A stretch of 64,000 nt of DNA. It comes from Thiotrichaceae bacterium UBA7357 (GTDB lineage: Bacteria; Pseudomonadota; Gammaproteobacteria; Eutrophobiales; Eutrophobiaceae). The DNA lies in assembly GCA_002470825.1 (NCBI GenBank), contig DKOR01000018.1:120482-184481 (forward strand), written 5' to 3'. Both the position numbers and the translations under genes were made by a program. The notes under the pieces were generated by a model. The model saw only the letters and a list, made by a program, of their open reading frames with translations. It made no database searches and was not told the DNA's origin. Each line of letters opens with the position of its first letter. The first letter of the stretch is position 1. This document shows positions 1 to 19,999 of this stretch, piece by piece.

Positions 1-428
1 GGGATAAGTCCGGGCTTTAAAAAGATATCGGCGTCTAGTAAAAGCAGATAGGGCGTTTTGATTAGTTGACGGCCTTGTTCCAAAGCCCATAACTTACCAC
101 TCCAACCTTCAGGTAGTGGGGTGCCCATAACAACATGTAAATTATTCAAATTTACGGCGAGAGCTTTTTCGACAGTATCATCGGTAGATTGATCATCGAT
201 CAGTATTACATTTAGTCCTTCTCCTTGTTCTTTTAGAGCAGCGAGTGTTTTATCGATTGTTTCTGTCTCATCTCTTGCAGGAATAAGAACAGTGGTATTA
301 GATAAATCGAGGTCTTCTACTGATTGGCTATCGAGTGTTTCTCGGGTGCTCCAAGCACGACACGGTAGTAGTAATATTGCGAGCCAAATAAGCAATCCTG
401 GCATTACTGCCAAGAGTGTTATTTCCAT
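1..428 (-). CDS. Family 2 glycosyltransferase, 5' portion only (gene continues past window start); HpnB-like hopanoid-associated GT
   Basis: Reverse-strand translation from the ATG at 428..426 gives MEITLLAVMPGLLIWLAILLLP (TM) ...VLIPARDETETI...ILIDDQSTDDT...GTPLPEGWSGKLWALEQG, a GT2/DPM1-like fold with the GWxGKLWA motif recalled for HpnB. The start overlaps the hpnH stop (TAATG). Confidence 0.55.
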   Translation of the reverse strand, partial: MEITLLAVMPGLLIWLAILLLPCRAWSTRETLDSQSVEDLDLSNTTVLIPARDETETIDKTLAALKEQGEGLNVILIDDQSTDDTVEKALAVNLNNLHVVMGTPLPEGWSGKLWALEQGRQLIKTPYLLLLDADIFLKPGLI

Positions 429-1555
429 TACGCGACTTGTTTGTTACTACTGCAACTTTTGGCGGCTGTAGTTTTCGCAACTAGTTTTGGTGCGATTACC
501 TCATCTTTATAAAGTATAGGTAATTCAGGTGCCATTTCGCCATCAGTCCTAGGACCTCTCAGGAATACACCCAATGCTTTAAATGGATGGTTAACTGTGT
601 CATTGACAGCGGTAGCTTCGAAGCCGCAATGAACCATACAGTTATCACATTTTGGATTTTTTCCAGTACCGTAATTGTCCCATTCGGTTTCTTCCATTAA
701 GCCAGCAAAGGTTGATGCATATCCCTCGCCAACTAATAAATAGCAAGGTTTTTGCCAGCCAAAAACATTACGGGTTGGGTTGCCCCAAGGGGTACATTCA
801 TATGTCTGATTCCCTGCCAAGAAGTCTAAATATAAGGATGATTGATTAAAACGCCAATTTTTGCCAATGCCCAGTTTAAATAAGTCACGAAAAAGTTGTT
901 TACTCTCCGTCTTTTTTAGAAACACGTCTTGCTTAGGTGCTCTTTCATAGTGATATCCTGGGGATATAGTGACAGCCTCAACACCCAATCCCATCGCCAT
1001 GTCCATGAACTCGGCTACTTCTTCGGCGGGCTCATTTTGAAATAAAGTACAATTAATAGTGACGCGGAAACCCTTTCCAATAGCCAGTTTAATTACGCTT
1101 ATACATTTTTCGAAGACACCTTCTAGGCAAACCGAAGCATCATGTCGTTTTTTGTTACCGTCTAAATGGATAGAAAAAGTTAGATAGGGTGATGGTGTGT
1201 ATTTGTCAATATGCTTTTTTAGCAATAGGGCATTAGTGCAAAGATAAACAAATTTCTTGCGTCCAATGTAGCCATTTACTATCTGAGACATTTCTTTGTG
1301 AATCAATGGTTCACCACCAGCAATAGAGACAACAGGCGCTCCACATTCATCAATTGCATTCATGCACTCGTCATAACTTAGCCGTTTATCAAGAATCTCT
1401 TTTGGGTAATCAATCTTGCCACAACCGGCGCAAGCTAAATTACACCTGAATAAAGGCTCCAACATCAATACAAGAGGATATTTCTTTACACCACTGATTT
1501 TCTTACCGAGAATATATTTACCCATTCTGTATTGCTGAATAAAGGGGACACTCAT
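428..1555 (-). CDS. hpnH: Hopanoid biosynthesis-associated radical SAM protein HpnH (adenosylhopane synthase)
   Basis: 375 aa. CNLACAGC (CX3CX2C) lies near the N-terminus and the protein aligns end to end with recalled HpnH (LVLMLEPLFRCNLACAGCGKI..., YLCTNALLL, ECTPWG.P.RN.FGWQKPCYL, CDNCMVHCG). Confidence 0.85.
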   Translation of the reverse strand: MSVPFIQQYRMGKYILGKKISGVKKYPLVLMLEPLFRCNLACAGCGKIDYPKEILDKRLSYDECMNAIDECGAPVVSIAGGEPLIHKEMSQIVNGYIGRKKFVYLCTNALLLKKHIDKYTPSPYLTFSIHLDGNKKRHDASVCLEGVFEKCISVIKLAIGKGFRVTINCTLFQNEPAEEVAEFMDMAMGLGVEAVTISPGYHYERAPKQDVFLKKTESKQLFRDLFKLGIGKNWRFNQSSLYLDFLAGNQTYECTPWGNPTRNVFGWQKPCYLLVGEGYASTFAGLMEETEWDNYGTGKNPKCDNCMVHCGFEATAVNDTVNHPFKALGVFLRGPRTDGEMAPELPILYKDEVIAPKLVAKTTAAKSCSSNKQVA

Positions 1556-1776: not shown

Positions 1777-3675
1777 ATGGATAACGACATTAATACACCT
1801 CTTTTAGATCAGATTGATTGTCCTGCAGACCTCAGAATGCTGCCCGAATCGCAATTAGAACAGCTTGTCGAAGAACTAAGATTGTTTTTATTACACTCTG
1901 TAAGTAAAAGTGGTGGACATTTTGCAGCGAGTTTGGGGGTCACTGAATTAACGGTAGCATTACATTATCTCTATAATACGCCCGAGGATCGTCTTGTCTG
2001 GGATGTGGGACATCAGGCTTATATTCATAAAATACTGACGGGTAGAAAAGATCAATTACATAGTATTCGACAATGGGAAGGTTTAAGTCCGTTTCCAAAA
2101 CGTGGTGAAAGTGAATATGATGCCTTTGGTGTAGGCCACTCCAGTACATCTATCAGCGCTGCTTTAGGGATGTCTATTGCCGCTGTGAGAACTGGTTCCG
2201 GTCGAAAGTCTGTCGCGATTATTGGCGACGGCAGTATGACTGCTGGGATGGCTTTTGAGGCATTGAATCATGCCGGTGCTTTACATAACGATCTATTAGT
2301 TATCTTGAACGATAACAATATGGCAATTTCACCTAATGTCGGAGCCTTATCAAATCGTTTTGCACAGCTATTATCTGGAAAGTTTTATACTAGTGTTCGC
2401 AGTAACAGTAAGAGAGTGCTGTCAAATATACCTAGTGCACTTGAGATAGCGAGGCGTGCCGAAGAACATGTTAAAGGGATGATTAGCCCAGGGACATTAT
2501 TTGAAGAATTTGGATTCAACTATATAGGGCCTATAGATGGTCATGATATGCACGCTTTAATTGCAACATTAAAGAATATTCAAGAACTTAAAGGTCCTCA
2601 ATTTTTACACATTATCACTAAAAAAGGTAAAGGTTATGCGCCGGCGGAAGACGATCCAATCAAATACCATGGCGTGACGCCTTTTGACCCGAATAAAGGC
2701 ATTATTTCTTCTGTTAAGCCGTTATCAGGGCCAACCTATAGTAAAGTATTTGGTGACTGGGCCTGTGATATGGCCAAGCAAGATCATCGTTTTGTAGCGA
2801 TTACTCCTGCGATGCGCGAAGGTTCCGGCTTGGTTCAGTTTGAAAAAGAACATCCAGATAAATATTATGATGTGGCAATAGCAGAACAGCACAGTGTCAC
2901 TGTTGCAGCTGGTATGGCATGCGATGGATTGAAGCCTGTTGTCGCAATTTATTCGACGTTCTTACAACGTGCATATGACCAATTGATACATGATGTCGTT
3001 GTTCAGAAATTACCAGTACTTTTTGCTATTGACAGGGCAGGCTGTGTTGGCGCCGATGGTCCGACACATAACGGTTCATATGATTTGAGCTTTATGCGTT
3101 GTTTGCCGGATATTGTGATTATGACACCTTCTGATGAAAATGAATGTCGGCAGATGCTATATACAGGCTACCAACTTGATCAACCTGTCGCTGTTCGTTA
3201 TCCACGTGGCGCGGGCCCAGGTGTTGAAGTAGTCAAAGACATGCAGGCACTTCCTATTGGTAAGTCTGAGCTCAGGCGTAAGGGTAAAAGTCTGGCTATT
3301 TTGGCGTTTGGAACAATGGTTGAACCCTGCGAACGTATTGCGCAAGACCTCGATGCCACAATCGTGAATATGCGTTTTGTTAAACCTATTGATGAAATGC
3401 TTATTATCGATATGTGCGAAACTCATGAATTGATCATTACCGTTGAAGAGAATGCTATATCCGGTGGAGCAGGTACAGCAGTGAATGAGGTGATTGCAGC
3501 AAATCGGATCAAACAAAAAATTGCTAATTATGGTTTACCAGATAGGTTACTGCAGCATGGTTCTAGAGAGGACATGTTGAGAGACGCAAAGCTTGATTAC
3601 GAAGGGATTCTTGATTTTATTACTGGGCGGATGAACGAATATGAGATGGATTATTTTGTTAGCAGTGCGTCTTAG
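1777..3675 (+). CDS. dxs: 1-deoxy-D-xylulose-5-phosphate synthase
   Basis: 632 aa with the [22 protein letters not shown] and [22 protein letters not shown]-binding motifs. Divergent from hpnH. Confidence 0.95.
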
Positions 3676-3703
3676 TTAGATAAGAATTAATAAAGATTAA
3701 TCG

Positions 3704-4786
3704 TTATTGAACAATCTTTTTCATTTCTTCAATAAATCTTTCTAAATCATTATTACTAATATCTCCCATACAAGAGATACGAAACAATGATTTGGCAAAC
3801 CCACCTTGTCCGGCATAGATGATAAAGCCAGCGTTCTTTAGTTTATCGTGTAGTTCTTCATAACTGATACCCTCAGGTAGCAGGAATGAATTTAGTACAC
3901 AGGAGGTTTCATTTCGTTCCAGTGAGGCTTTCATGTTTAATTCAAGCAAACCATTGCGAACAATGTCCATTCGTTGCCAGTATTGTTTCTGGCGTTTTCG
4001 CCAACCACCGGCATCGTTTAACTCATCTAATGCCTCGGCCAAGGCATAGAAGGTTTGTATTGATTGGGTGAAAGGTGTGCTATTGCTATCTTGTAGTTTC
4101 ATATAGGTCACAAGATCAAGATAGAGTGTGCGGGCAGGAGTTGCCGACATTTGTGTTATCGCTTCTCTATTACTGATAACGAATGAAGTGCCGGGGACAC
4201 CATGTAAACATTTATTTGCTGTTGCGGCGCAGGCAGCGATGTTCCATTCCTTGAATTTAATCTCTTCCGCACCAAAACTGCTAACGGCATCGAGCAAAAG
4301 TGGAATTCTCCCATGTTTATTAGAAAGTTCAGCAATGGCATCGATATCATTTAATCTTCCGGTGGTTGTTTCATGATGTACAACGGCAATATGGGATAGC
4401 TGTCTATTACATAGCAGCTCACTCTCTAACTTAGTCAGATCGATTTCCTCACCCCACTCATGATGAAGTATTACGTGTTCTATATTATGTGTTTTTGCTA
4501 TGTAACTTAAGCGTTCACCATAGACACCATTTTCTATAATTAAGACCTTCCCATGTGAAGGCACAAGACTAGTTATCATACCCTCCATTGCCGAGGTGCC
4601 AGAGCCAGTAAAGACTATGCTAGTCCATTGTTCTTCTGGCAGTTGATAAATATTTAGTAGATCGGTTTTGATCTTATTTTGTAATTTAATAAATTCTTGT
4701 TCACGATGACACAGATCGGGCTTTAATAGTGCCTGACGAACACGCTCACTTAAAACAACTGGACCAGGATTCAGTAATATAGTCAT
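3704..4786 (-). CDS. phnW: 2-aminoethylphosphonate:pyruvate aminotransferase (class V aminotransferase)
   Basis: 360 aa with the LLNPGPV N-terminus typical of the AGT/PhnW family. Last gene of the pepM-ppd operon. Confidence 0.75.
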   Translation of the reverse strand: MTILLNPGPVVLSERVRQALLKPDLCHREQEFIKLQNKIKTDLLNIYQLPEEQWTSIVFTGSGTSAMEGMITSLVPSHGKVLIIENGVYGERLSYIAKTHNIEHVILHHEWGEEIDLTKLESELLCNRQLSHIAVVHHETTTGRLNDIDAIAELSNKHGRIPLLLDAVSSFGAEEIKFKEWNIAACAATANKCLHGVPGTSFVISNREAITQMSATPARTLYLDLVTYMKLQDSNSTPFTQSIQTFYALAEALDELNDAGGWRKRQKQYWQRMDIVRNGLLELNMKASLERNETSCVLNSFLLPEGISYEELHDKLKNAGFIIYAGQGGFAKSLFRISCMGDISNNDLERFIEEMKKIVQ

Positions 4787-4788
4787 GA

Positions 4789-5943
4789 TTAAAAGCTGCT
4801 ATTAATATGTTTCATCAGTCTATTCAATACTTTATTTGGTGTGATGTCGGGTCTAGGTAGGTCTCCTATTGTGCCAGATGCTATTCTTAGATGGGCGAAT
4901 ACTGGCCCGTCTTGTGGTCCTATATTAAATAGCTTATCAATTATGTCGATTTCATTACTGGATAGACACACACTGTAACCACTTGCCTCTGCTACCTTCA
5001 AAAAATCGACATTACCACCAACGGTAGCTTGACCACCGGTAGAATCATGAACTTCATTATTCAATAGTATGTGGATTAGATTGTGACCTGCATAACTACC
5101 AATAGTAGCAAAATTACCCATACGCATCAGACCTGCGCCATCACCATCAATAATAACAACTTTTAAATCAGACCTAGCTAAAGCAACACCTAAACCTAAT
5201 GATGAAGCACAACCCATAGAACCCACCATATAAAAATGGTTGGAGCGATCATCGATGGCAAATAACTCACGACCGGTAAACCCTGTCGTCGCAATTAACA
5301 CTGTGTTTGCTTTAGGTGTCCGTTCGATAATTCTTTGCAAGACCTTATTACGATTAAGAGTTGATGCATCGGGATTATATGATGAATGAACAAGCGTCTT
5401 TCGTGATGAAATATCTTTCACTGGATTTTTATATAACGCCTGTGGCGCGACTGTACCTTTTTCCATTATAAAGGCGTAAGGTCTTTGTTCTTTTTTCATA
5501 TAATGATCTGCACGTTCTAGAGCTGGTCCTATATCTTCAACATTATTTGGAAATACTTCCCAAGGGACGCACATGGTGTCGAATAAATCTTTAGTTATTT
5601 GACCCATTAACTCATGTTGTGGCTCGTCTTTAATTCCAGGCTGACCACGATGAGTGCTTATAAGTAAATTTGGAATACGAAACACATAAGAAAGAGATGT
5701 TAACGGACTGATAGCGTTGCCTAGTCCTGAGTTTTGCATCATAACAACAGAACGCTGACCACCTATTGCTGCTCCTGCTGCGGTTGCTAATGCATCTCCT
5801 TCGTTAGCAGAGGAGACGTATTCCAATGTGTCATCGTTAATAACATAATTTATAAATGGTGTCAGGAATGAGCATGGCACACCCGTATAACGACTGAAAC
5901 CGAATTCGCGTGCCGCTTCAATAAATTCTTTTGCTTCGATCAA
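4789..5943 (-). CDS. ppd: Phosphonopyruvate decarboxylase (TPP-dependent)
   Basis: 384 aa with an N-terminal TPP-enzyme domain and a GDG...NN TPP-binding motif (VIIDGDGAGLMRMGNFATIG). Apparent TTG start 11 nt after the pepM stop. Confidence 0.8.
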   Translation of the reverse strand: MIEAKEFIEAAREFGFSRYTGVPCSFLTPFINYVINDDTLEYVSSANEGDALATAAGAAIGGQRSVVMMQNSGLGNAISPLTSLSYVFRIPNLLISTHRGQPGIKDEPQHELMGQITKDLFDTMCVPWEVFPNNVEDIGPALERADHYMKKEQRPYAFIMEKGTVAPQALYKNPVKDISSRKTLVHSSYNPDASTLNRNKVLQRIIERTPKANTVLIATTGFTGRELFAIDDRSNHFYMVGSMGCASSLGLGVALARSDLKVVIIDGDGAGLMRMGNFATIGSYAGHNLIHILLNNEVHDSTGGQATVGGNVDFLKVAEASGYSVCLSSNEIDIIDKLFNIGPQDGPVFAHLRIASGTIGDLPRPDITPNKVLNRLMKHINSSF

Positions 5944-5954
5944 TTTCGCTCTCT

Positions 5955-7592
5955 TTATTTTATAAAGTCGCTAGCGCGATCTATATCATCCAATGAATTT
6001 ACATCAAGCCAATGACCGTCTATATAATGAACATGGACTGGTTTCTCTTCTTGTATCAAATAATTTAACAAGTCAGGTATCGTAAGTTCATTGAAGTTTT
6101 TTGCTGACTTTAATTTTGTCAGCGCCGACTCTATCCATTCTCGGCCTTGTTTTCTGACACGCATCATCCCGATCCAGTAACCAGAAGGCTTTTTCTTAGA
6201 GGTATCAATTGAAGAAGATAGCTGTATTAATGTGACATCTTGCATAAACGGAGAACGATCATCATCTTTACTGCAATAGGCATAATCAGGATTGCCGGTT
6301 ATATTTGGATTATCCAAAGCAGAATCAACGATAATGACGACTTCCCCATCTGTTTCAATCAAGTCTCTCAGAATATATTCCCGAAACAATAGATCGCTAT
6401 AAAGAATCAACATATCGTCATTAAAATTTTCGTTTGCACAAATCAGTGTTTGTAGTTCATCACCTCTTTCGTAATCTTCATTGATACATTTCTCAATGCC
6501 GAGGAGATCTATCGCTTCCGCTTTATAACCTGCTATTACAGTAGATTTATTTATACCTACTTTTTTCAAGCCATCCATTAATCGACCTAGTAAGGTTTTA
6601 CCGCCAATACTGATCATCGCCTTTGGTTTATCATGTGTCAGCTCTCGTAATTCACTGCCCCTGCTTGCAGCTAGGATGACGGCATGGACATCTGATTTTT
6701 GTACTAAATATCTATCTTGTGCCTGACTTAATTCATCAGCACCTTGTAACTGAAAGATATGATCAACACTGGCAATTTTATCTTCAATATCGGCTAGAGA
6801 TTCTGAATCAAAAATAGCTTTACTAGTTTTTTCCATTTCATGAACAGAAGAGCGAATTAAATGATTGGCCCAAATAACCAAATTAATTCCTGCCTTACGA
6901 AAGGCATCTGTTGGTGTACTATAATATTTAGTTGGGACAATAACCAAGGGTGAGCGCTCAGCCCATTCTTTTGCAAAGGTGAGGATCTCATCTGGTCTGG
7001 AGAGTTTACTATGAATCAATACACCATCAGCACCGGCTTGACGATAGGCCTCTGCTCGCTTCAGTGCTTCATTTAATCCCCAGCCGGCAATCAGCGCTTC
7101 AACTCTCGCAACGATACTAAAATCATCATCGGATTGACTATCTTTACCTGCTTTAATTTTGCCACAAAATTCATCAATATCGGCCAAGGGTTGTTTGTTA
7201 CCATCGATAAAGCTATTTGTTTTTGGAAATTGTTTATCCTCTATACAAACGCCAGCAATATCACGTTGTTCTAGTTTTACGACAAGTCGACGCATATTGT
7301 TGAAATTACCATAACCGGTATCACCATCTAACAAGATTGGAATGCTTGTTGCGTCAGACATAAACTCTAGCATGTCGACTACCTGAGTCCAGCTTGCTTC
7401 GTTGCTGTCACGCACACCAAATTGTGCTGATATGGCAAGACCACTACCCCAGATACCTTTAAAACCGGCACTTTCTACAATACTTGCAGAAATACCATTA
7501 TGTGCTTCCAGAATGAATTCAAGTTCATTTGATTCAAGCAAAGAGCTTAGTTGTTTACACTTGCTAATTTTTTCACGACTATTTTTAGACAT
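5955..7592 (-). CDS. pepM: Phosphoenolpyruvate phosphomutase fused to a C-terminal LicC/CTP-transferase-like nucleotidyltransferase domain
   Basis: 545 aa. The N-terminal ~290 aa are an ICL/PEP mutase fold ([10 protein letters not shown]..., EDKQFPK..NSF); the C-terminal ~250 aa carry the NTase motif ([14 protein letters not shown]...[12 protein letters not shown]). Confidence 0.85.
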
Positions 7593-7611
7593 TTTTATAT
7601 TTAGCTAATGA

Positions 7612-8361
7612 TTAATAATTGATAGGTGATAATTTAGGGATTATCTCATTTTGGGCACGTTCAATATCTTCAGGAAAATCTATTTCGATCCAAGGAATGC
7701 CAGTAACATCTTCATAGCCAAATTGCTCGGGATATATTAATAATAGATCGCGAATTGCTTCTTCATACGGTGTATTGTTTTTGTTTTTTGCAAGATAGTC
7801 ATTTATTCGCCCAAGCAATGATGTGCCTATTAGCTTAGTAAACTTGAAAAAGCCGACTGATTCACCTTGTATAGCGTAATCAAGCTTTTCATCGATATTT
7901 TTTCTAAACTCATTTATTTGAGCATTTTTATCAACACAAATTTTTACAGGTTCATTACCAGGGATAAAATCACGGTCGAGCAAAAGGCAGTTTTTTATAT
8001 TCGTATTGATCAGACGAGTTATCATTTCATGACCATACAGAACATCAGCATCCATCAAAATAAATTCAGATTCATTGTATAGTGTTTCTTGTGCACAACT
8101 AAGGCTGATAATACTTCCTTCGGCATAACGATCATTATAAATATAGTTTATTGGTATTGTTTCATTGCTGAGATGAGTCTTTATCATTTCAGACTGATAG
8201 CCAGTGACTATTGTTATTTCTTCGATATGATTTGCCGAAAGAATTTCAATATGACGCTTTAATAGACTTTTCCCTTCAAACTTCAGTAATGACTTAGGTT
8301 GATTGGCAGCATGCATACCGAGTCTGTTACCAATGCCTGCGGCAAGAATAATAGCCTTCAT
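7612..8361 (-). CDS. LicC-like nucleotidyltransferase (CTP:phospho-base cytidylyltransferase family)
   Basis: MKAIILAAGIGNRLG N-terminus from the ATG at 8361..8359. The ORF is open further upstream to 8505, but that extension has no NTase similarity. Confidence 0.7.
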   Translation of the reverse strand: MKAIILAAGIGNRLGMHAANQPKSLLKFEGKSLLKRHIEILSANHIEEITIVTGYQSEMIKTHLSNETIPINYIYNDRYAEGSIISLSCAQETLYNESEFILMDADVLYGHEMITRLINTNIKNCLLLDRDFIPGNEPVKICVDKNAQINEFRKNIDEKLDYAIQGESVGFFKFTKLIGTSLLGRINDYLAKNKNNTPYEEAIRDLLLIYPEQFGYEDVTGIPWIEIDFPEDIERAQNEIIPKLSPINY

Positions 8362-8906
8362 AATCTTGTTATTTATACCTTTGTGTAAATGGTTCTTGAA
8401 CCAAAGGACTTCAAGTCCCTCATTTGCAACTATCAGGAATAGTTGGATTGTATCATTGTTACAAAAAATGTCCTTATGTACATTTGCAGATGAAAATATA
8501 GTCATGAATAATATATGTTAATAAGCCATTATGAATGATTATAATCAATATAATTAGCCCTATAAATAAATATTACTGAGCAACTTGACGATGAGAGTAT
8601 GTGATTCATTTGTCAAAGAGCAATGAATTATCGGTCAGGCAAGGTACTATTTTAGGGTAAGTCTTGATTAATTGCTGGCTTCATGGGTTATATTAAAATT
8701 GTAAGTAAGTATGCAAATACACAAAATTGTTTTTCATCTCTATGGCATGATTTCTGTAAAATCAAATCAACTAATATATCTTCGGCTAATACTTTCTTTT
8801 TTTATTTAATTCAAATTGAATATCTATTATTTTTTACTCGACTATCTATGCAGGTCATTAATTGAAAAATTTTTTGTAATTATATTCATGTACGTTTCTC
8901 GAACAA

Positions 8907-11351: not shown

Positions 11352-12644
11352 ATGACTGACAACATGCCAGAAAAAATTGGAAAATATGAAGTTCGAAATG
11401 AGATCAATCGCGGGAGTATGGGAGTCGTTTATCTTGGACACGATCCTTACGTAAATCGACATGTTGCTTTGAAGCTCGCATTTCTAGACTCACTTAATGA
11501 ACCAGAGTTTGGTGAGCGATATCGTAAAATGTTTTTTAATGAAGCTCATACTGCTGGTTTACTAACGCACCCCAATATTATTAATATTTATGATGCTGGT
11601 GTAGATGGTGACAATTGTTATATTGTTATGGAATATATTGAAGGTGGTAATACACTTAAGCCATATTGTGATTCCAATATGTTATTACCTATCAATAAAG
11701 TCGTTGAAATAATATTTAAATGTGCAAGTGCACTTGACTACGCACATCGACAAGGGGTTGTACATAGAGATATTAAACCTTCAAATATACTTTTTACGCC
11801 CGACCAAAATGTAAAGATTGCGGATTTTAGTATTGCTCATATATATAACGCAGATTCAACGACGACACAGGTGGGTGGAATGATGGGGTCGCCAAGATAT
11901 ATGTCTCCGGAACAACTTAAAGAAGAATACATAACTAACCAGAGTGATATTTTTTCATTAGGTGTGGTCATGTATGAGTTGTTGACAGGACGACAACCAT
12001 TTGCTGCAAATAGCTTTTCAGGATTGGTAAATAGTGTATTAAATGATGAGCCGCCGCCAATGAATAACTATCGGAATAATCTGCCTGAAGCTTTAAAAGA
12101 GATCGTAAATAAAGCTTTGAACAAAGATCTTTCTAATCGCTACAAGATGGGATTAGATTTTGCTGCAGATCTTACTAAAGCATTTGATATGTTGGGGAAG
12201 CCTAGAGAAGATATTTTTGTTAAAGAAAGATTTAATGCTGTCAAAACATTAGAATTTTTTGCTGATTTTGACGACACAGAAATTTGGGAAATTTTACATG
12301 CTAGTACATGGAAAGCTTATCATACTAATGATGATATTATTGTTGAAGGAGATATAGATGATTGTTTTTATGTCATCGTTAATGGCAGTGTTGAGGTGAC
12401 GAAAAATAGATCAGTCATTCGAAGGTTGGAAAAAGGCGATTGTTTTGGTGAAATGGGTTATCTATCTAAAACTAAGCGAACTGCCACTATCAAATCACTT
12501 GATTGTACGTCGATAATGAAAATTAATTCAACAGTGATTAATCAGGCATCAATAAATTGCCAGGTACGATTTTACAAGGTTTTTTTGAGAACCTTAATAA
12601 ATCGACTATCTGAAACTACAGAAAAGATATCTCAGGAGGTCTGA
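11352..12644 (+). CDS. Eukaryotic-like Ser/Thr protein kinase fused to a C-terminal cyclic-nucleotide-binding (CAP-family) domain
   Basis: 430 aa. Hanks kinase motifs are present (GRGSMGVVY, VALK, HRDIKPSNILF, ADFSIA, SPEQ); the C-terminal ~120 aa show a cNMP-binding pattern (IIVEGDIDDCFYVIVNGSVEV..GDCFGEMGYL..RTATIKS). Confidence 0.8.
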   Translation: MTDNMPEKIGKYEVRNEINRGSMGVVYLGHDPYVNRHVALKLAFLDSLNEPEFGERYRKMFFNEAHTAGLLTHPNIINIYDAGVDGDNCYIVMEYIEGGNTLKPYCDSNMLLPINKVVEIIFKCASALDYAHRQGVVHRDIKPSNILFTPDQNVKIADFSIAHIYNADSTTTQVGGMMGSPRYMSPEQLKEEYITNQSDIFSLGVVMYELLTGRQPFAANSFSGLVNSVLNDEPPPMNNYRNNLPEALKEIVNKALNKDLSNRYKMGLDFAADLTKAFDMLGKPREDIFVKERFNAVKTLEFFADFDDTEIWEILHASTWKAYHTNDDIIVEGDIDDCFYVIVNGSVEVTKNRSVIRRLEKGDCFGEMGYLSKTKRTATIKSLDCTSIMKINSTVINQASINCQVRFYKVFLRTLINRLSETTEKISQEV

Positions 12645-12962
12645 TTAATATCAGGGTATTAGGGGATAATGGGACAATATAGAATTAATTTATTGGATAT
12701 CCTTTATATGGAGGGTTCCAATGCTTGTAATGTGATTTAATAAAACATCTTATTTAATTGGACAATAATTTCTCATATGTTGGTTAAAGATATTAACTTT
12801 TAAATGAGCATGCAGTTAGAAGTTATTGTTGAAAATAGTAAAAATTAAAAACCTAAAACTTATAGGCTGAGAATGCTAAAGAAGATATAATATTCTTGAT
12901 GTTTCAAGTAATAACGAAATATATATATAACTTATATTACCTGTGTAAAGTATTAAATTTAG

Positions 12963-13036
12963 TGTCCCCAACAGGAGTCGAACCTGTAATCTACTCCTTA
13001 GGAGGGAGTTGCGTTATCCAATTACGCTATGGGGAC
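12963..13036 (-). tRNA. tRNA-Arg (anticodon CCU)
   Basis: 74-nt cloverleaf read by hand: GTCCCCA / GCGT..ACGC / ACTCC-CTCCTAA-GGAGT / ACAGG-TTCGACT-CCTGT / TGGGGAC-A. CCA is not encoded. Confidence 0.9.
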
Positions 13037-13296: not shown

Positions 13297-14259
13297 ATGT
13301 ACGATACATCATCTTTACTCAATCAAAGAAAATTTCCAATGATTAAGCGAAAGAGCCTAACTACGCTACAAATCAATATTGGCTTGAAGTGTAATCAGCA
13401 GTGTTTTCATTGCCATGTTAATTCGAGCCCCAAAAGAAAAGAAAAAATGTCTAATGCCACTATTAAGGCAATTAAGCTATTTCTAAAAAATAATAATATT
13501 GAATCACTTGATATCACTGGTGGTGCGCCAGAACTTCACTCAGAATTCAGATCTCTTATAAAATATGCGCGTGAAAATGATGTGCATGTTATAGATCGGT
13601 GTAATCTGACTATTTTAGAAGAGCCAGGGATGGAATACCTTGCGCAATTTTTAGCAGATTATGAAGTAGAAATTATAGCTTCTCTACCTTGCTATGAACT
13701 AGAAAATGTTGATAAACAACGAGGTGTAGGTGTGTTTGAGAAAAGTATCAGGGGTTTGAAAAAATTGAATAAAGTAGGTTATGGACATTCAAATTTGGAG
13801 TTACCTTTGAATTTAGTATTTAATCCTCAGGGGGCAGCATTGCCACCACCACAAGATTATCTGGAACGAACTTATAAAAAAGAATTATTGGAGAGGCATG
13901 GAATTAAATTCAATAAACTTTTTACATTATGTAATATGCCAATAAACAGATTTGGAAGTACCTTGGTATCCAAAAATCAATTAGATGACTATATGAGAAT
14001 GCTTACGGGTTCGCATAGGGAAGAGAATCTAAGAGATGTGATGTGTCGTAGTTTAATCAGTGTTGACTGGCAAGGTTATGTATATGATTGTGATTTTAAT
14101 CAAATGTTGAATATAAATTTAAATGATGCCGAAGAAAAAATATCGATTTCTGATTTGGTTGGTAATGATATTGAAGGTGATATAATTGCAGTGCGGGATC
14201 ATTGTTATGGTTGTACGGCAGGGCAAGGTAGTAGCTGTAGCGGTGCATTAACTGCTTGA
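13297..14259 (+). CDS. Radical SAM / C-terminal Cys-rich domain protein, ArsS-like (TIGR04167-type rSAM/selenodomain protein, Cys version)
   Basis: 320 aa with an N-terminal CNQQCFHC (CX3CX2C), the ITGGAPELH glycine-rich motif and a C-terminal Cys cluster CYGCTAGQGSSCSG. Immediately followed by its two usual partner transferases. Confidence 0.75.
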   Translation: MYDTSSLLNQRKFPMIKRKSLTTLQINIGLKCNQQCFHCHVNSSPKRKEKMSNATIKAIKLFLKNNNIESLDITGGAPELHSEFRSLIKYARENDVHVIDRCNLTILEEPGMEYLAQFLADYEVEIIASLPCYELENVDKQRGVGVFEKSIRGLKKLNKVGYGHSNLELPLNLVFNPQGAALPPPQDYLERTYKKELLERHGIKFNKLFTLCNMPINRFGSTLVSKNQLDDYMRMLTGSHREENLRDVMCRSLISVDWQGYVYDCDFNQMLNINLNDAEEKISISDLVGNDIEGDIIAVRDHCYGCTAGQGSSCSGALTA

Positions 14260-14265
14260 GATTAT

Positions 14266-14946
14266 ATGCAAAAAAAAATATCTATTATAATCCCAACACT
14301 AAATGAAGCCGACCAAGTTGAACGACAGCTGGCTAAGCTTCAGACGTTACGGAAAAATGGTCATGAGGTGATTTTAGTAGATGGTGGCAGTATTGATGGT
14401 ACAGTTTCATTAGTAATATCATTATGTGATCAAGTTTATGAGTCTCAACGATCACGCTCAATTCAAATGAACTATGGAGCAAGAAAAGCGACGGGAAAAT
14501 GTTACGTATTTTTACATGCTGATACAATTCTTCCAGATGACATTATTCAGTTTTTGTTGAAGATTAATAATATTGAAGAAAAATGGGGCAGGTTCGATAT
14601 AAGTCTGTCAGGAAGACACTGGCTATTCCGTGTTATTGAGTCATTTATTAATTGTCGATCAAGTTTTACAGGTATTGTTACAGGTGATCAGGTTATTTTT
14701 ATTGGAGAGGAATTGTTTTCCAGAGTGGGAGGATATCCAGAAATAGCTTTAATGGAAGATATTGCTATATCTAGTTTGTTGATTAAATTTTCAAAGCCAA
14801 TTCGAACTAGAAAAAAGGTAATCAGTTCTAGTCGACGTTGGGAAAAAAATGGAATATTTAAAACAATTATAACAATGTGGATATTAAGATTATTATATTT
14901 CTTTGATTATGATATTAATAAAATAGCAAGATACTATGGAAAATGA
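14266..14946 (+). CDS. Family 2 glycosyltransferase (rSAM/selenodomain-associated transferase 2, TIGR04283-like)
   Basis: 226 aa with the ISIIIPTLNE...VILVDGGSIDGT GT2 N-terminus. Starts 6 nt after the rSAM stop and overlaps the next gene by 11 nt. Confidence 0.75.
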   Translation: MQKKISIIIPTLNEADQVERQLAKLQTLRKNGHEVILVDGGSIDGTVSLVISLCDQVYESQRSRSIQMNYGARKATGKCYVFLHADTILPDDIIQFLLKINNIEEKWGRFDISLSGRHWLFRVIESFINCRSSFTGIVTGDQVIFIGEELFSRVGGYPEIALMEDIAISSLLIKFSKPIRTRKKVISSSRRWEKNGIFKTIITMWILRLLYFFDYDINKIARYYGK

Positions 14947-15580
14947 ATTTTCTAGAGGAGCTCTCTTAATCTTTACAAAAGCACCTGTGCGCGGACATGT
15001 TAAAACACGATTAATCCCAAGCATTGGTCTAGAGCATGCTACTTCGATATATCAAGAAATTTTAACAAAGACGCTAAGCACGGCAAGAAAATCTAATTTT
15101 TCTTCTATACAGGTATGGGTTGATGGTGGGGTTGAGCATGCTTATTTTAAGCGTTTAAAAAGTAGGCATAAGGTTAAATTTTACAAACAGAAAGGTAAGG
15201 ATTTAGGAGTACGAATGATGAACGCCTTTAAAATTGCTTTACGTCAATATTCTCATGCTGTTTTAATTGGTGGAGACTGTCCTTCATTAGAATATTTAGA
15301 TTTAATAATGGCAAGTGACTATCTTAAGAACAATACAGATGTAGTCTTAGGCCCTGCAATTGATGGCGGTTACTATTTGATAGGTTTAAATAAAAACAAT
15401 GCTCAAATATTCACAAATGTAAAATGGGGTAAAAGCGGAGTGTTTGCTCACACTTGTGAAAATATAAGTGCTCTAGGCTTGAAGCTTGACTTGTTGCCAG
15501 AGCGTTGGGATGTTGACCGAACTGTTGATTTACTACCTTACTTCAAGATGAAACGAAAAAACGCCACTCTTTACTACTAA
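14936..15580 (+). CDS. DUF2064 / MobA-like nucleotidyltransferase-fold protein (rSAM/selenodomain-associated transferase 1, TIGR04282-like)
   Basis: 214 aa with LIFTKAPVRGHVKTRL...DLGVRMMNAF...LIGGDCP...GPAIDGGYYLIG. The G-x-D-x-P and DGGY motifs are typical of the DUF2064 family. Confidence 0.65.
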   Translation: MENEFSRGALLIFTKAPVRGHVKTRLIPSIGLEHATSIYQEILTKTLSTARKSNFSSIQVWVDGGVEHAYFKRLKSRHKVKFYKQKGKDLGVRMMNAFKIALRQYSHAVLIGGDCPSLEYLDLIMASDYLKNNTDVVLGPAIDGGYYLIGLNKNNAQIFTNVKWGKSGVFAHTCENISALGLKLDLLPERWDVDRTVDLLPYFKMKRKNATLYY

Positions 15581-15853: not shown

Positions 15854-15944
15854 GGAGAGGTGTCCGAGTGGTTTAAGGAGCACGCTTGGAAAGCGTGTAT
15901 ACGTTAATAGCGTATCGAGGGTTCGAATCCCTCTCTCTCCGCCA
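15854..15944 (+). tRNA. tRNA-Ser (anticodon GGA), type II with long variable arm; CCA encoded
   Basis: GGAGAGG acceptor, anticodon arm CACGC-TTGGAAA-GCGTG, variable arm ATACG..CGTAT, T-arm GAGGG-TTCGAAT-CCCTC, then TCTCTCC-G-CCA. The six-frame ORF 15824..16138 (-) overlapping it is spurious. Confidence 0.9.
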
Positions 15945-17319: not shown

Positions 17320-17322
17320 TGT

Positions 17323-18867: not shown

Positions 18868-19999
18868 ATTTTTATTATATCTAACGACCTCTAAATTGTA
18901 ACGCAACATCTTTCGGTATGAAAAAAATAAGAAGTGAAGTGTTGAATAATGGAACACTATGCGTATTTTGATAGTAAGGAACATACTTCATAGGAACTAA
19001 GACTCAGAAGGATGGGTACTAACTGATTTAGAAATGGACCATCTTTTTGGTAAGGATTTAGTTCTCTCAGTTTTACTGAAAACATCTCTTGCTGCTGTGA
19101 CTGTTGTAAATAACAATTAGCTTAATCTAGCTGTATTGCCAATAAGTTACTATAACGATGAAGAGCTGTTTTTTGTAAATTAATTCTGTAGCTTATGTTG
19201 GATTGTAAGCTTCTTAATCGCTTTACTTCCTCGAGTCTTTTCGTTATCTATTACGACATATGTAAAGGACATACCAGAAAAAATATTTCTTGAAATAGCA
19301 TTCAATTTAGATTTACCAGCAATGAAAGTTCTTCATTTTTTTGTAGATAAATATCAATCCGTCTTTACACACAGAAGACATAAATGGTTAAGAAGAGGTA
19401 TAAAAGTATATGCAGAGGTATTTATGGCACTTTTACATAAAAAATATCTGAGTTGGCTTATCTATAATAGTTAAGAAAAGTGATGTTCTTTCTAAGGTGC
19501 CAACATAAAACGTATCCTGAGAATCAAGGTAACTAGGATGTGCTGTTTCTATCCTCAGAATTATTCTCTAAGAGTAATCCATTTCCTGTTCTTGAGTGTA
19601 GTAAAATTTGTCGATATGTCGTAACATTTTGATGTAATAAAATTATACAGATTGTGTAACAGAAGGTTGTCTAAATTAGGTGAGATTCCCTATATTTTCT
19701 CAATTTTAGCGAAATTAATAGAGATACTGGATAACTCTAGACTGTAACCACTGCCATATTCTGTATGCGACTAATTGAATAAAATTATATTTCTAGATTT
19801 AGATAATGATCCTATATTTGATATTCAGATACTATATGAATATAGAGTAACTGTGATTTGTAATGAACGCAGATTCAATTATATTATAAATATTAAGATG
19901 CTGGGTCGATTATTCTAATGAGATAAAAGGATTTACTGCTATACATTACGTATAAAGGCTTTTTCGATAACTTCATCAATTATAAATTTACTTCACACA

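What the first reader, a model, noticed from the sequence alone, without database searches (positions are those of the whole stretch)
3704..8505. Complete 2-aminoethylphosphonate biosynthesis operon with PepM-cytidylyltransferase fusion plus a second LicC-like nucleotidyltransferase
Four co-directional genes with 2-22 nt gaps encode the full route to AEP: PEP mutase (fused in cis to a LicC-like NTase domain), phosphonopyruvate decarboxylase and AEP transaminase. The operon is led by a separate LicC-like NTase. C-P bond biosynthesis is accessory, and fusing PepM to an NTase implies direct formation of CMP-AEP (or a related NMP-phosphonate) for attachment to a glycan or lipid. The second NTase could activate a different head group (for example phosphocholine or N-methylated AEP) or be the true AEP cytidylyltransferase. 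No transferase that would move the activated phosphonate onto an acceptor is encoded in the operon, so the target (LPS core, capsule, glycoprotein or lipid) is open. The operon sits between dxs and pgi.
Basis: partly seen in the sequence, partly recalled or inferred. Interest (0 to 1): 0.65.

Follow-up and report, generated by a model that had tools for sequence, protein, structure and literature searches.

The report
Aminoethylphosphonate operon beside hopanoid genes
This is a real but already well-described four-gene operon that makes the carbon-phosphorus compound 2-aminoethylphosphonate and activates it for attachment to the cell envelope; its repeated placement inside hopanoid-lipid gene clusters suggests an undescribed phosphonate-decorated hopanoid.

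Summary
Four co-directional minus-strand genes, with gaps of 19, 11 and 2 nt, encode a LicC/PntC-type nucleotidyltransferase (NT1), a PEP mutase fused to a second NTase-like domain (NT2), phosphonopyruvate decarboxylase and AEP transaminase. The true 5' end is 8361, not 8505.

The architecture is not new. PF12804 fusions make up about 33% of PEP mutases, and "two PntCs, one fused to Ppm" is the core of the commonest ppm neighbourhood in RefSeq.

- **NT1 is the canonical enzyme.** It keeps GXGxR-X8-PK and the Lys153 equivalent, and its best solved relative is the AEP cytidylyltransferase Tde-PntC. NT2 lacks the PPi-site arginine in 119/119 close homologs.
- **NT1 is always present.** It sits directly upstream of the fusion in 79/80 related loci and is fused to it in one protein.
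- **The cassette lies among hopanoid genes.** Here that is dxs, hpnH and hpnB. It is interleaved with hopanoid genes in other Gammaproteobacteria, including cultured Salinisphaera, and in Nostocales, often with a CDP-alcohol phosphotransferase.

No transferase is found in this window. Verdict: a new member of a known kind, of moderate interest because of the testable phosphono-hopanoid hypothesis.

The parts
7612..8361 (-). NT1: stand-alone LicC/PntC-type cytidylyltransferase (249 aa). It is the first gene of the operon and the predicted AEP cytidylyltransferase that makes CMP-AEP.
   Evidence: PF12804 E = 1.9e-13. Best solved relative is 6PD1 Tde-PntC, E = 3e-15, aligned over the full length. 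The start at MKAIILAAG is shared by 73/75 homologs. 118/118 close homologs keep G at position 1 and R at position 5 of the signature.
8293..8346 (-). NT1 nucleotidyltransferase signature LAAGIGNRLGMHAANQPK (GXGxR-X8-PK), with the Arg15 and Lys25 equivalents intact.
   Evidence: The consensus and the mutational importance of Arg15, Lys25 and Lys153 come from PMC6697681. The Lys153 equivalent (K155) and the LMDADVL motif are invariant in 75 homologs.
6699..7592 (-). PEP mutase (Ppm) domain of the fusion protein, residues 1-298.
   Evidence: TIGR02320 392 bits against a cutoff of 320. 1M1B Mytilus PEP mutase, 435 bits.
7212..7241 (-). Ppm-specific catalytic motif [10 protein letters not shown], matching EDK(X)5NS.
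   Evidence: Conserved in 73/73 related fusions.
5955..6698 (-). NT2: C-terminal NTase-like domain fused to Ppm (residues 299-545 plus stop). It is strongly constrained but non-canonical, and its role is unresolved.
   Evidence: PF12804 E = 6.4e-9. Best solved relatives are ST0452 (2GGO) and LicC, E about 1e-9. Invariant YGDLLFR, GHWLDVN and PK motifs.
6621..6674 (-). NT2 altered signature [18 protein letters not shown]. The first Gly is replaced by Ser, and the Arg15 position is Glu. A conserved Arg sits at position 2.
   Evidence: Position 5 is never Arg in 119 close homologs. It is Arg in only 5 of 55 fused or N-terminally extended representatives, against 38 of 45 stand-alone NTases in the same search.
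4789..5943 (-). Phosphonopyruvate decarboxylase (Ppd), TTG start. Its decarboxylation step pulls the unfavourable mutase equilibrium forward.
   Evidence: TIGR03297 432 bits against a cutoff of 312, plus PF02775 and PF02776.
3704..4786 (-). 2-aminoethylphosphonate transaminase (AEPT, AepZ type).
   Evidence: TIGR03301 393 bits against a cutoff of 361. The catabolic PhnW model TIGR02326 scores below its cutoff.
8362..8906 (-). AT-rich 545-nt intergenic region between pgi and NT1, presumed to hold the promoter. In relatives a Ser/Thr kinase paralog sits here, but it is absent in this window.
   Evidence: Promoter-like hexamers at 8566-8538 are not above chance overall: 49 sites found against 44.9 expected.
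3682..3729 (-). AT-rich hairpin spanning the AEPT stop codon, between the convergent AEPT and dxs genes. It may be a bidirectional terminator.
   Evidence: MFE -12 kcal/mol, z = -2.8 against shuffles. This is weak evidence.
1777..3675 (+). dxs (DXP synthase, isoprenoid precursor supply). It is convergent with the cassette and divergent from hpnH.
   Evidence: TIGR00204 899 bits. The layout is conserved in 30 related loci.
428..1555 (-). hpnH (adenosylhopane synthase), which carries out the first step of extended-hopanoid side-chain synthesis.
   Evidence: TIGR03470 538 bits against a cutoff of 225.
3..407 (-). N-terminal part of hpnB (hopene-associated GT2 glycosyltransferase), running off the window edge.
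   Evidence: tblastn 54% identity to HpnB cluster c9. The c9 representative scores TIGR03469 382 bits against a cutoff of 379.

Best explanation
The locus is a phosphonyl-tailoring (Pnt) cassette.

**Shown by sequence and family membership.**
- The Ppm domain converts PEP to phosphonopyruvate.
- Ppd decarboxylates that to phosphonoacetaldehyde.
- AEPT transaminates it to 2-aminoethylphosphonate (AEP).

**Inferred: which NTase activates AEP.** The stand-alone NT1, not the fused domain, is the canonical PntC that condenses AEP with CTP to give CMP-AEP (probability about 0.75). The Ppm-fused NT2 is a conserved, non-redundant NTase-like module that has lost the PPi-site arginine. It is either a nucleotide-binding regulatory or scaffolding domain, or an NTase with altered chemistry. 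I rate those two options about equally.

**Inferred: where the phosphonate goes.** CMP-AEP is the donor for a transferase encoded outside this window, which puts AEP on a membrane lipid. In relatives that transferase is a small CDP-alcohol phosphotransferase next to NT1. The cassette is repeatedly interleaved with hopanoid side-chain genes, so the most interesting and reasonably likely acceptor is a bacteriohopanepolyol hydroxyl. I put that at about 0.35-0.45 for this organism. The alternative is a diacylglycerol-type phosphonolipid.

**Classification.** The cassette is the four-gene subset of the published seven-gene "Group 1 phosphonolipid / Burkholderiales_CDP-OH" core.
For: **Enzyme identities.**

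**NT1 is canonical.**
- Signature GIGNR-X8-PK, invariant Lys153 equivalent, Glu196 equivalent.
- Best PDB hit is Tde-PntC.
- Arg15, Lys25 and Lys153 alanine mutants of Tde-PntC keep less than 10% activity (PMC6697681).

**NT2 is non-canonical across the whole fused subfamily.**

**NT1 and NT2 are not redundant.**
- NT1 lies directly upstream of the fusion in 79/80 loci from Gammaproteobacteria and Nostocales.
- P0102 is a 797-aa NT1-Ppm-NT2 triple fusion that keeps both signatures.
- All biochemically characterised PntCs were the non-Ppm-fused NTases (PMC6697681).

**Lipid and hopanoid destination.**
- This window has hpnH and hpnB next to dxs.
- 26/30 non-cyanobacterial and 11/24 cyanobacterial loci of at least 15 kb carry hpn genes within 10 kb.
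- L074: shc-hpnG-PhyH-hpnN-hpnA-hpnL-NT1-PpmNT2-Ppd-AEPT, then dxs on the opposite strand, then hpnH-hpnB-hpnM.
- L083, Salinisphaera sp. T31B1: one co-directional string, shc-hpnG-hpnN-CAPT-hpnA-DUF2147-unknown 350-aa ORF-oxygenase-hpnL-NT1-PpmNT2-Ppd-AEPT-hpnH-hpnB-hpnM.
- L084: hpnN-NT1-CAPT-hpnA-hpnL-ispH-hpnH.
- Nostocales: hpnJ/K/I-CAPT-oxygenase-NT1-PpmNT2-Ppd-AEPT, followed by hpnH and hpnA on the opposite strand.

**Independent data from supplements of 10.1101/2025.07.29.667474.**
- CDP-alcohol phosphatidyltransferase is seen 1409 times within 20 ORFs of 3662 shc loci.
- In Gammaproteobacteria, K01841 (Ppm) and K09459 (Ppd) co-occur with shc, r = 0.43 (p = 3e-58) and r = 0.38 (p = 1e-46).
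Against: - **No biochemistry.** All specificity and destination claims are inferred.
- **NT1 differs from Tde-PntC at one contact.** It has Asp, like LicC, where Tde-PntC has the AEP-contacting Glu104. Its substrate could differ from AEP.
- **NT2 may still be active.** It keeps Lys25, both metal-binding Asp positions and a conserved Arg at loop position 2. From memory, this resembles the PARxxSxK/R loop of the CMP-sugar synthetases KdsB and NeuA.
- **No transferase nearby.** This window and its closest relatives have no CAPT, HpnL or oxygenase within 10 kb.
- **Synteny in this gammaproteobacterial lineage is generally conservative.** pgi, a CBS protein and a kinase are also retained next to the cassette. 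Adjacency to hpnH here is therefore weak evidence on its own.
- **The link is not universal.** 13/24 long cyanobacterial loci show no hpn gene within 10 kb.
- **HpnL is not phosphonate-specific.** It occurs in hopanoid clusters without any phosphonate genes.
- **No known product.** No phosphorus-containing hopanoid was found in the searchable literature.
- **Possible sampling bias.** The shc-Ppm co-occurrence statistic may be driven by Burkholderiales sampling.
Confidence: 0.72

Rival explanations
1. The roles are reversed. The Ppm-fused NT2 is the working AEP cytidylyltransferase, channelling pathway product directly to CMP-AEP. NT1 activates a different head group such as phosphocholine, phosphoethanolamine or a modified phosphonate.
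For: NT2 is under strong purifying selection and keeps Lys25 and both metal-binding Asp positions. Fom1 sets a precedent for an active Ppm-fused cytidylyltransferase, although from a different Pfam family (PMC6697681). NT1 has Asp, as in LicC, at the Glu104 position. JGI labels NT1 homologs "choline kinase" and NCBI labels them "phosphocholine cytidylyltransferase family".
Against: NT2 lacks the Arg15 equivalent, whose alanine mutant in Tde-PntC keeps less than 10% activity. NT1 is closer than NT2 to Tde-PntC (59.7 against 30.3 bits). NT1 travels with the cassette in 79/80 loci, and no licA or licB choline genes are nearby. L084 keeps NT1 plus CAPT without the fusion.
Confidence: 0.12
2. Both NTases are active and act on different phosphonates or at different pathway steps. 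For example, one acts on AEP and the other on a hydroxylated or otherwise tailored phosphonate. The literature labels both as PntCs.
For: Both are retained everywhere, including in a triple fusion. Many relatives add a 2OG or PhyH oxygenase that would create a second substrate, 1-hydroxy-AEP (PMC8942020).
Against: This window and its closest relatives lack the oxygenase but keep both NTases. The NT2 signature change argues against a standard NTP-dependent reaction.
Confidence: 0.15
3. CMP-AEP goes to an ordinary glycerolipid, giving a diacylglycerol-AEP analogue of phosphatidylethanolamine, or to a glycan or LPS. The hopanoid neighbourhood then reflects a shared membrane-lipid island or inherited synteny, not a shared product.
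For: Yu et al. and Li & Horsman predict the homologous seven-gene core to make a phosphonolipid (PMC8942020). CDP-alcohol phosphotransferases classically use glycerolipid or polyol partners (NCBIfam hits). pgi and other housekeeping genes are equally syntenic in this lineage. Many Nostocales loci lack hpn genes nearby. A CAPT plus HpnL-like pair also occurs in a non-hopanoid context (L086).
Against: The cassette and CAPT are inserted between hopanoid genes in at least five different arrangements across two phyla. They co-occur genome-wide with shc in Gammaproteobacteria. Ppm-shc linkage has also been noted in Nitrosococcus and Acetobacteraceae.
Confidence: 0.4
4. The operon is catabolic or salvage-oriented, degrading AEP rather than making it.
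For: AEP transaminases are reversible, and TIGR03301 covers both PhnW and AepZ.
Against: The operon contains a bona fide PEP mutase and Ppd and no phosphonatase (phnX), phnA, PalA or C-P lyase. The phosphonopyruvate hydrolase model scores below its cutoff (229 against 374 bits). The rest of the window is housekeeping.
Confidence: 0.02

Closest known systems
"Group 1 phosphonolipid" / "Burkholderiales_CDP-OH" ppm neighbourhood (Yu et al. 2013; Li & Horsman 2022, PMC8942020)
   Same: It has a Ppm fused to a PF12804 NTase, a second stand-alone PntC, Ppd and AEPT. That is exactly the four genes found here. It is described as the most abundant ppm neighbourhood family, 36% of those analysed.
   Different: The published core has seven genes. 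This window lacks the 2OG oxygenase, the CDP-alcohol phosphatidyltransferase and the second membrane or phospholipid gene. Relatives such as L041, L083 and Nostocales carry them. The product of the family is still uncharacterised.
Tde-PntC (Tde1415, PDB 6PD1/6PD2) and Ari-PntC, the characterised AEP-specific cytidylyltransferases (Rice et al. 2019, PMC6697681)
   Same: NT1 aligns over its full length with Tde-PntC (E = 3e-15). It keeps the Arg15, Lys25, Lys153 and Glu196 equivalents. Like those enzymes, it is the non-Ppm-fused NTase of a cluster that also has a Ppm-fused one.
   Different: NT1 is stand-alone, whereas Tde1415 is fused to AEPT. NT1 has Asp where Tde-PntC has Glu104. No activity data exist for NT1.
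Spn-LicC CTP:phosphocholine cytidylyltransferase (PDB 1JYK/1JYL)
   Same: Same fold and signature. NT1 shares the DAD and EID metal-site motifs.
   Different: There are no lic genes here. The genomic partner is an AEP pathway. LicC prefers phosphocholine 200-fold over AEP.
Fom1 (fosfomycin pathway), a Ppm with an active fused cytidylyltransferase
   Same: It is a precedent for a catalytically relevant NTase fused to Ppm.
   Different: The Fom1 domain is N-terminal and belongs to PF01467, and it acts on hydroxyethylphosphonate. NT2 is C-terminal, belongs to PF12804, and lacks the consensus Arg.
IPCT/DIPPS (inositol-1-phosphate cytidylyltransferase fused to a CDP-alcohol phosphotransferase)
   Same: NT1's best NCBIfam hit is the N-terminal half of this model. 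The CAPT next to NT1 in relatives hits the C-terminal half. The logic is the same two steps: activate with CTP, then transfer to an alcohol.
   Different: Scores are far below the cutoff (82 against 580 bits). The two proteins are separate. The substrates are different.
Hopanoid (hpn) biosynthetic gene clusters
   Same: hpnH and hpnB are in the window. Relatives place the cassette between hpnL and hpnH, or next to hpnA, G, I, J, K and N.
   Different: No described hopanoid pathway uses a phosphonate. The functions of HpnA, HpnB and HpnL are still unknown. Published comments are limited to antiSMASH-style "phosphonate-terpene" remarks.

Membership tests
PEP mutase (Ppm, EC 5.4.2.9) | ICL/PEP-mutase superfamily domain scoring above the equivalog cutoff, and not better explained by sister families | tested here: met
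   TIGR02320 scores 392 against a cutoff of 320. PPH (229 against 374), PrpB (134 against 354) and CPEP mutase (82 against 420) are all below their cutoffs. 435 bits to 1M1B.
PEP mutase (Ppm, EC 5.4.2.9) | EDKXXXXXNS catalytic motif | tested here: met
   [10 protein letters not shown] at residues 118-127. Conserved in 73/73 relatives.
PEP mutase (Ppm, EC 5.4.2.9) | PEP to phosphonopyruvate activity | not testable with these tools
   Needs an enzyme assay or 31P-NMR.
Phosphonopyruvate decarboxylase (Ppd) | TPP-enzyme N- and C-terminal domains, scoring above the TIGR03297 cutoff | tested here: met
   432 bits against a cutoff of 312. PF02775 and PF02776 are present. Sulfopyruvate decarboxylase models score below their cutoffs.
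AEP transaminase (AepZ/PhnW) | Class-V aminotransferase scoring above the TIGR03301 cutoff | tested here: met
   393 bits against a cutoff of 361.
PntC (phosphonyl-tailoring cytidylyltransferase): NT1 | GXG(T/S)RX4-8PK signature with Arg15 and Lys25 | tested here: met
   GIGNRLGMHAANQPK. The T/S position is Asn here and variable in homologs. G and R are invariant in 118/118.
PntC (phosphonyl-tailoring cytidylyltransferase): NT1 | Lys153 equivalent and the AEP-amine contacts Glu104 and Glu196 | tested here: inconclusive
   The Lys153 equivalent (K155) is invariant and the Glu196 equivalent is present. Glu104 is replaced by an invariant Asp, as in LicC.
PntC (phosphonyl-tailoring cytidylyltransferase): NT1 | Encoded within a few genes of ppm | tested here: met
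   Adjacent here (19-nt gap), adjacent in 79/80 loci, and fused in P0102.
PntC (phosphonyl-tailoring cytidylyltransferase): NT1 | Preference for AEP and CTP | not testable with these tools
   Needs kinetics.
PntC (phosphonyl-tailoring cytidylyltransferase): NT2 (Ppm-fused domain) | GXG(T/S)RX4-8PK signature with Arg15 | tested here: not met
   The sequence is [15 protein letters not shown]. Position 1 is Ser or Thr in 118/119 close homologs. Position 5 is E, A, G, S or N and never R in 119. Lys25 is retained.
PntC (phosphonyl-tailoring cytidylyltransferase): NT2 (Ppm-fused domain) | PF12804 LicC-like fold | tested here: met
   PF12804 36.6 bits against a cutoff of 27. It aligns to 2GGO, 1JYK and 6PD1.
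Seven-gene "Burkholderiales_CDP-OH" / Group 1 phosphonolipid core | Ppm-PntC fusion, second PntC, Ppd and AEPT | tested here: met
   compared with PMC8942020.
Seven-gene "Burkholderiales_CDP-OH" / Group 1 phosphonolipid core | 2OG-Fe(II) oxygenase, CDP-alcohol phosphatidyltransferase and a second phospholipid-type membrane gene in the cluster | tested here: not met
   None is in the 64-kb window. They are present in relatives L041, L083 and Nostocales.
Hopanoid biosynthetic cluster (as an accessory module) | Physical linkage to hpn genes recurring in independent lineages and arrangements | tested here: met
   hpnH and hpnB are in the window. Linkage is seen in 37/54 long loci. There are five distinct interleavings.
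Hopanoid biosynthetic cluster (as an accessory module) | A hopanoid product that carries the phosphonate | not testable with these tools
   Needs lipid LC-HRMS and 31P-NMR. No such compound was found in the literature searches.

The most novel reading that the evidence does not exclude
The cassette supplies CMP-AEP for a so far undescribed lipid class, a phosphono-hopanoid. In it, AEP (or 1-hydroxy-AEP in relatives that carry the oxygenase) is phosphonoester-linked to a bacteriohopanepolyol hydroxyl. The link would be made by the small CDP-alcohol phosphotransferase that accompanies NT1 inside hpn clusters.

This would identify the product of the most abundant ppm gene-cluster family. It would also explain why CDP-alcohol phosphotransferase is among the commonest unexplained shc neighbours.

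A corollary is that the Ppm-fused PF12804 domain, found on about a third of all PEP mutases, is not a conventional PntC. It would be a regulatory or otherwise non-canonical nucleotide-binding module, which is why a separate PntC always accompanies it.
Probability: 0.33. Interest if true: 0.8.

Novelty: new member of a known kind. Interest (0 to 1): 0.45.

Why it matters
On its own the operon adds another uncultured marine gammaproteobacterium (closest relative: a "Thiotrichaceae UBA7359" MAG, 94% identity) to the many bacteria predicted to decorate their envelope with AEP. That is relevant to marine phosphonate cycling but is not surprising.

The comparative results matter more.

**They separate the two "PntCs".** One is a canonical enzyme. 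The other belongs to a systematically altered subfamily that lacks the PPi-site arginine. That subfamily covers roughly a third of all known PEP mutases and has never been assayed.

**They point to a product.** They turn a scattered antiSMASH-level remark ("phosphonate-terpene") into a concrete, testable hypothesis in culturable organisms such as Salinisphaera sp. T31B1, Nostocales HT-58-2, Nostoc spp. and Nitrosococcus. The hypothesis is that the phosphonate is attached to hopanoids. Two questions have been open for a long time:
- What is the product of the Group 1 phosphonolipid clusters?
- What are the unassigned genes around hopanoid clusters for?

Both become directly addressable by lipid mass spectrometry and a few knockouts.

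Tried and rejected
- **Transferase search inside the window.** A six-frame regex for the CDP-alcohol phosphotransferase motif gave no hit. Pfam or NCBIfam scans of about 45 ORFs found only housekeeping genes, an arsenosugar trio, and an MBOAT with an unknown partner. There was no LicD, PF01066 or sulfatase-type enzyme. tblastn of every conserved neighbour family from 80 related loci against the window found no CAPT, HpnL, HpnA or oxygenase.
- **Transferase search in relatives that lack hpn neighbours (L025, L027, L036).** I found TPR/cytochrome, GT4, polysaccharide-export, helicase and DNA-methylase genes. Nothing was conserved.
- **Promoter and terminator scans.** Counts were not above shuffled expectation. 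The only feature was a weak hairpin at the AEPT/dxs junction.
- **Rfam and tRNA scans.** Nothing lies in or next to the operon.
- **Horizontal-transfer signal.** Cassette GC equals window GC, so I rejected recent acquisition.
- **HpnL as a phosphonate-specific partner.** Rejected. HpnL occurs in hopanoid clusters without ppm and in non-hopanoid contexts.
- **Calling NT2 a dead pseudoenzyme.** Not adopted. The domain is highly constrained and keeps Lys25, both Asp positions and a conserved Arg at loop position 2.
- **Literature searches for a described phosphono-hopanoid or for an assay of a Ppm-fused PF12804 domain.** Nothing was found. The library lacks most subscription journals.
- **Finding the CAPT elsewhere in the source genome.** Not possible.

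Full report
**1. Observation**

The minus strand between 3704 and 8505 carries four consecutive ORFs. Pfam and NCBIfam identify them as follows.
- An NTase: PF12804, E = 1.9e-13.
- A PEP mutase fused to a second PF12804 domain: PF13714 E = 5.7e-58; TIGR02320 392 bits against a cutoff of 320.
- Phosphonopyruvate decarboxylase: TIGR03297 432 bits against 312.
- AEP transaminase: TIGR03301 393 bits against 361.

The sister families of PEP mutase (methylisocitrate lyase, carboxy-PEP mutase, phosphonopyruvate hydrolase) all score below their cutoffs. The domain scores 435 bits against the crystallised Mytilus PEP mutase. The diagnostic EDK(X)5NS motif is present as [10 protein letters not shown] and is conserved in 73/73 relatives.

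The gaps are 19, 11 and 2 nt. The only correction concerns the 5' end. 73 of 75 homologs of the first gene start at MKAIILAAG, so it starts at 8361 rather than 8505. dxs and pgi flank the operon as stated. Its GC content matches the window.

**2. Source and conservation**

A scan of species-representative genomes returned more than 590 relatives of the fusion protein. The best 80 loci are from uncultured marine and sediment Gammaproteobacteria and from Nostocales cyanobacteria. The closest is a "Thiotrichaceae bacterium UBA7359" MAG at 94% identity, followed by Legionellales-labelled MAGs.

The order NT1 > Ppm-NT2 > Ppd (> AEPT) is kept in essentially all of them. NT1 lies immediately upstream of the fusion in 79/80. 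One database protein (P0102, 797 aa) is an NT1-Ppm-NT2 triple fusion that retains both NTase signatures. The two NTases are therefore co-inherited and not redundant.

**3. What is already known**

Rice et al. 2019 (PMC6697681) reported the following.
- About 60% of PEP mutases are fused to NTase domains, 33% of them to PF12804.
- Clusters often carry a Ppm-fused NTase and a separate one.
- The separate ones (Ari1348, Tde1415) are AEP-specific cytidylyltransferases, named PntC.

Li & Horsman 2022 (PMC8942020) describe a seven-gene core: Ppm-PntC fusion, second PntC, Ppd, AEPT, 2OG oxygenase and two phospholipid genes. It is the most abundant ppm neighbourhood (36%), and its product is still uncharacterised.

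The window's operon is the four-gene subset of that core. The finding is therefore a new member of a known kind, not a new architecture.

**4. Which NTase does what**

Rice et al. define the consensus GXG(T/S)RX4-8PK. They show that Arg15, Lys25 and Lys153 alanine mutants of Tde-PntC keep less than 10% activity.

*NT1*
- It carries GIGNR-X8-PK.
- The Lys153 equivalent is invariant, a Glu196 equivalent is present, and the LicC-like DAD and EID metal motifs are there.
- 118/118 close homologs keep the Gly and the Arg.
- Its best solved relative is Tde-PntC, aligned over the full length with E = 3e-15.

*NT2*
- It reads [18 protein letters not shown]. The first Gly is Ser or Thr in 118/119 close homologs. 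The Arg15 position is E, A, G, S or N, and never Arg, in 119 close homologs.
- A search of 1.8 billion cluster representatives extends this down to about 30% identity. Fused or N-terminally extended members have Arg at that position in only 5/55. Stand-alone NTases in the same hit list have it in 38/45.
- NT2 is nevertheless strongly constrained, with invariant YGDLLFR, GHWLDVN and PK motifs.
- It has a conserved Arg, Lys or His at loop position 2. From memory, this resembles the PARxxSxK/R loop of CMP-sugar synthetases.

I conclude that NT1 is the PntC (inferred, about 0.75). NT2 is either a regulatory or scaffold nucleotide-binding module or a non-canonical enzyme, and this is unresolved.

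**5. The missing transferase**

None is encoded in the window.
- There is no CDP-alcohol phosphotransferase motif in any frame.
- There are no homologs of neighbour families from related loci.
- The remaining ORFs are housekeeping genes, an arsenosugar trio, and an MBOAT with an unknown partner.

In 18 of the 54 related loci of at least 15 kb (16 cyanobacterial, 2 other), a 200-aa PF01066 CDP-alcohol phosphotransferase lies within the 10-kb flanks. In most of those it sits just upstream of NT1, separated at most by a 2OG or PhyH oxygenase. NT1 and this CAPT hit the two halves of the bifunctional IPCT/DIPPS model. That fits an activate-then-transfer pair.

**6. Hopanoid context**

Clustering all ORFs of the 80 loci shows the gammaproteobacterial layout. 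The cassette runs pgi > NT1 > Ppm-NT2 > Ppd > AEPT. dxs follows on the opposite strand, then hpnH > hpnB > hpnM > mlaA-like (HpnS). 26/30 non-cyanobacterial loci of at least 15 kb carry hpn genes.

On its own this is weak evidence, because pgi, a CBS protein and a kinase are equally syntenic in this lineage. Other arrangements are independent of it.
- **L074:** shc-hpnG-PhyH-hpnN-hpnA-hpnL-[cassette], then dxs on the opposite strand, then hpnH-hpnB-hpnM.
- **L041:** shc, hpnA, hpnL, CAPT and oxygenase upstream of NT1.
- **Nostocales:** hpnJ/K/I-(B12 rSAM)-CAPT-oxygenase-[cassette], followed by hpnH and hpnA on the opposite strand, in 11/24 long loci.
- **L083, cultured Salinisphaera sp. T31B1:** one co-directional string, shc-hpnG-hpnN-CAPT-hpnA-DUF2147-unknown 350-aa ORF-oxygenase-hpnL-NT1-PpmNT2-Ppd-AEPT-hpnH-hpnB-hpnM.
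- **L084:** hpnN-NT1-CAPT-hpnA-hpnL-ispH-hpnH, with no ppm within 10 kb.

Hopanoid clusters of a deltaproteobacterial MAG and a Mariprofundaceae MAG have the same backbone without the phosphonate genes. The cassette therefore behaves as an accessory module inserted into the hpn operon.

**7. Independent support and prior remarks**

Supplementary tables of a hopanoid preprint (10.1101/2025.07.29.667474) contain two relevant results.
- CDP-alcohol phosphatidyltransferase occurs 1409 times within 20 ORFs of 3662 shc loci. That is comparable with hpnG and hpnN. NTase families occur 535 and 336 times.
- In Gammaproteobacteria, PEP mutase and Ppd KOs correlate with shc presence, with r = 0.43 and 0.38 and p = 3e-58 and 1e-46.

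The preprint's main text does not discuss phosphonates.

Three papers mention ppm-terpene linkage in passing: for Nitrosococcus, for GCF 731, and for Roseomonas and Belnapia. I found no description of a phosphorus-containing hopanoid. The functions of HpnA, HpnB and HpnL remain unknown.

**8. Mechanism proposed**

- **Shown by family membership:** PEP -> phosphonopyruvate (Ppm) -> phosphonoacetaldehyde (Ppd) -> AEP (AEPT).
- **Inferred:** AEP + CTP -> CMP-AEP, by NT1.
- **Inferred from relatives:** CMP-AEP + lipid-OH -> lipid-O-P(O)(O-)-CH2CH2NH3+ + CMP, by a CAPT encoded elsewhere in this genome.
- **Acceptor:** a bacteriohopanepolyol (about 0.35-0.45 here) or a diacylglycerol-type lipid (about 0.4). 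A glycan is less likely.
- **NT2:** role unresolved.

**9. Verdict**

The finding is real and correctly identified, but it is an ordinary example of a published architecture. The added value is twofold. NT1 and NT2 can be told apart as a canonical enzyme and an altered subfamily. The comparative case for a phosphonate-hopanoid link can be tested in cultured strains. Interest is 0.45.

Noticed in passing
window 13297-15580 (+): An arsenosugar-type trio: radical-SAM ArsS (TIGR04167, 446 bits), a TIGR04283 glycosyltransferase and a TIGR04282 protein. Homologs of the last two (clusters c30 and c31) also lie just upstream of pgi and the cassette in several other gammaproteobacterial loci (L032, L035-L037, L050).
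   Followed up: partly
window 16228-18984 (-): An MBOAT-family membrane O-acyltransferase (553 aa, DltB-like, 165 bits) followed by a 363-aa protein with no Pfam or NCBIfam hit. This looks like a possible polymer O-acylation pair of unknown target.
   Followed up: no
window 11352-12644 (+) and 8362-8906: A Ser/Thr kinase whose C-terminus carries a cNMP-binding-like FGE...RTA motif, seen by eye and not tested with an HMM. Most relatives have a second paralog of this kinase between pgi and NT1. In this window that slot is an empty 545-nt AT-rich spacer.
   Followed up: partly
P0102 (database protein, 797 aa): A natural triple fusion NT1-Ppm-NT2 with both NTase signatures intact. It was seen on 2 contigs. 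I have not excluded that it is a sequencing or readthrough artefact.
   Followed up: partly
loci L017, L018, L028, L032-L037, L040, L042, L050: A subset of gammaproteobacterial loci have NT1-PpmNT2-Ppd followed directly by dxs, with no AEP transaminase. Either AEPT is encoded elsewhere or the activated phosphonate is not AEP in those organisms.
   Followed up: no
L036:12727-18162: About 5.5 kb carrying a D12-class DNA adenine methyltransferase and several unknown ORFs is inserted between Ppm-NT2 and Ppd, splitting the cassette. It is probably a mobile or defence element.
   Followed up: no
L084:7648-8987: An NT1 ortholog and a CDP-alcohol phosphotransferase sit between hpnN and hpnA in a hopanoid cluster with no ppm within 10 kb. 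The NT1-CAPT pair may therefore also work with a head group made elsewhere, or with a non-phosphonate one.
   Followed up: partly
Nostocales loci, cluster c14 (e.g. L048:4010-5674): A B12-binding radical-SAM protein with DUF4070 sits directly upstream of the CAPT in many loci. Its weak best NCBIfam hit is the PhpK P-methyltransferase family (74 bits against a cutoff of 600). It could be the hopanoid methylase HpnP or a phosphonate-modifying enzyme. This is not resolved.
   Followed up: partly
window 20000-21157 (+): A DUF6607-family protein (236 bits) of unknown function lies between the MBOAT pair and a peptidyl-prolyl isomerase.
   Followed up: no
L072:19426-20658: An IS200/IS605 TnpB RNA-guided endonuclease gene is inserted between hpnA and the hpnG-like gene of the Nostocales HT-58-2 hopanoid/phosphonate cluster.
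   Followed up: no
window 12962-13036 (-), 15854-15944 (+), 23289-23385 (+): tRNA-Arg(CCU), tRNA-Ser(GGA) and the small SRP RNA. None lies next to the operon.
   Followed up: yes
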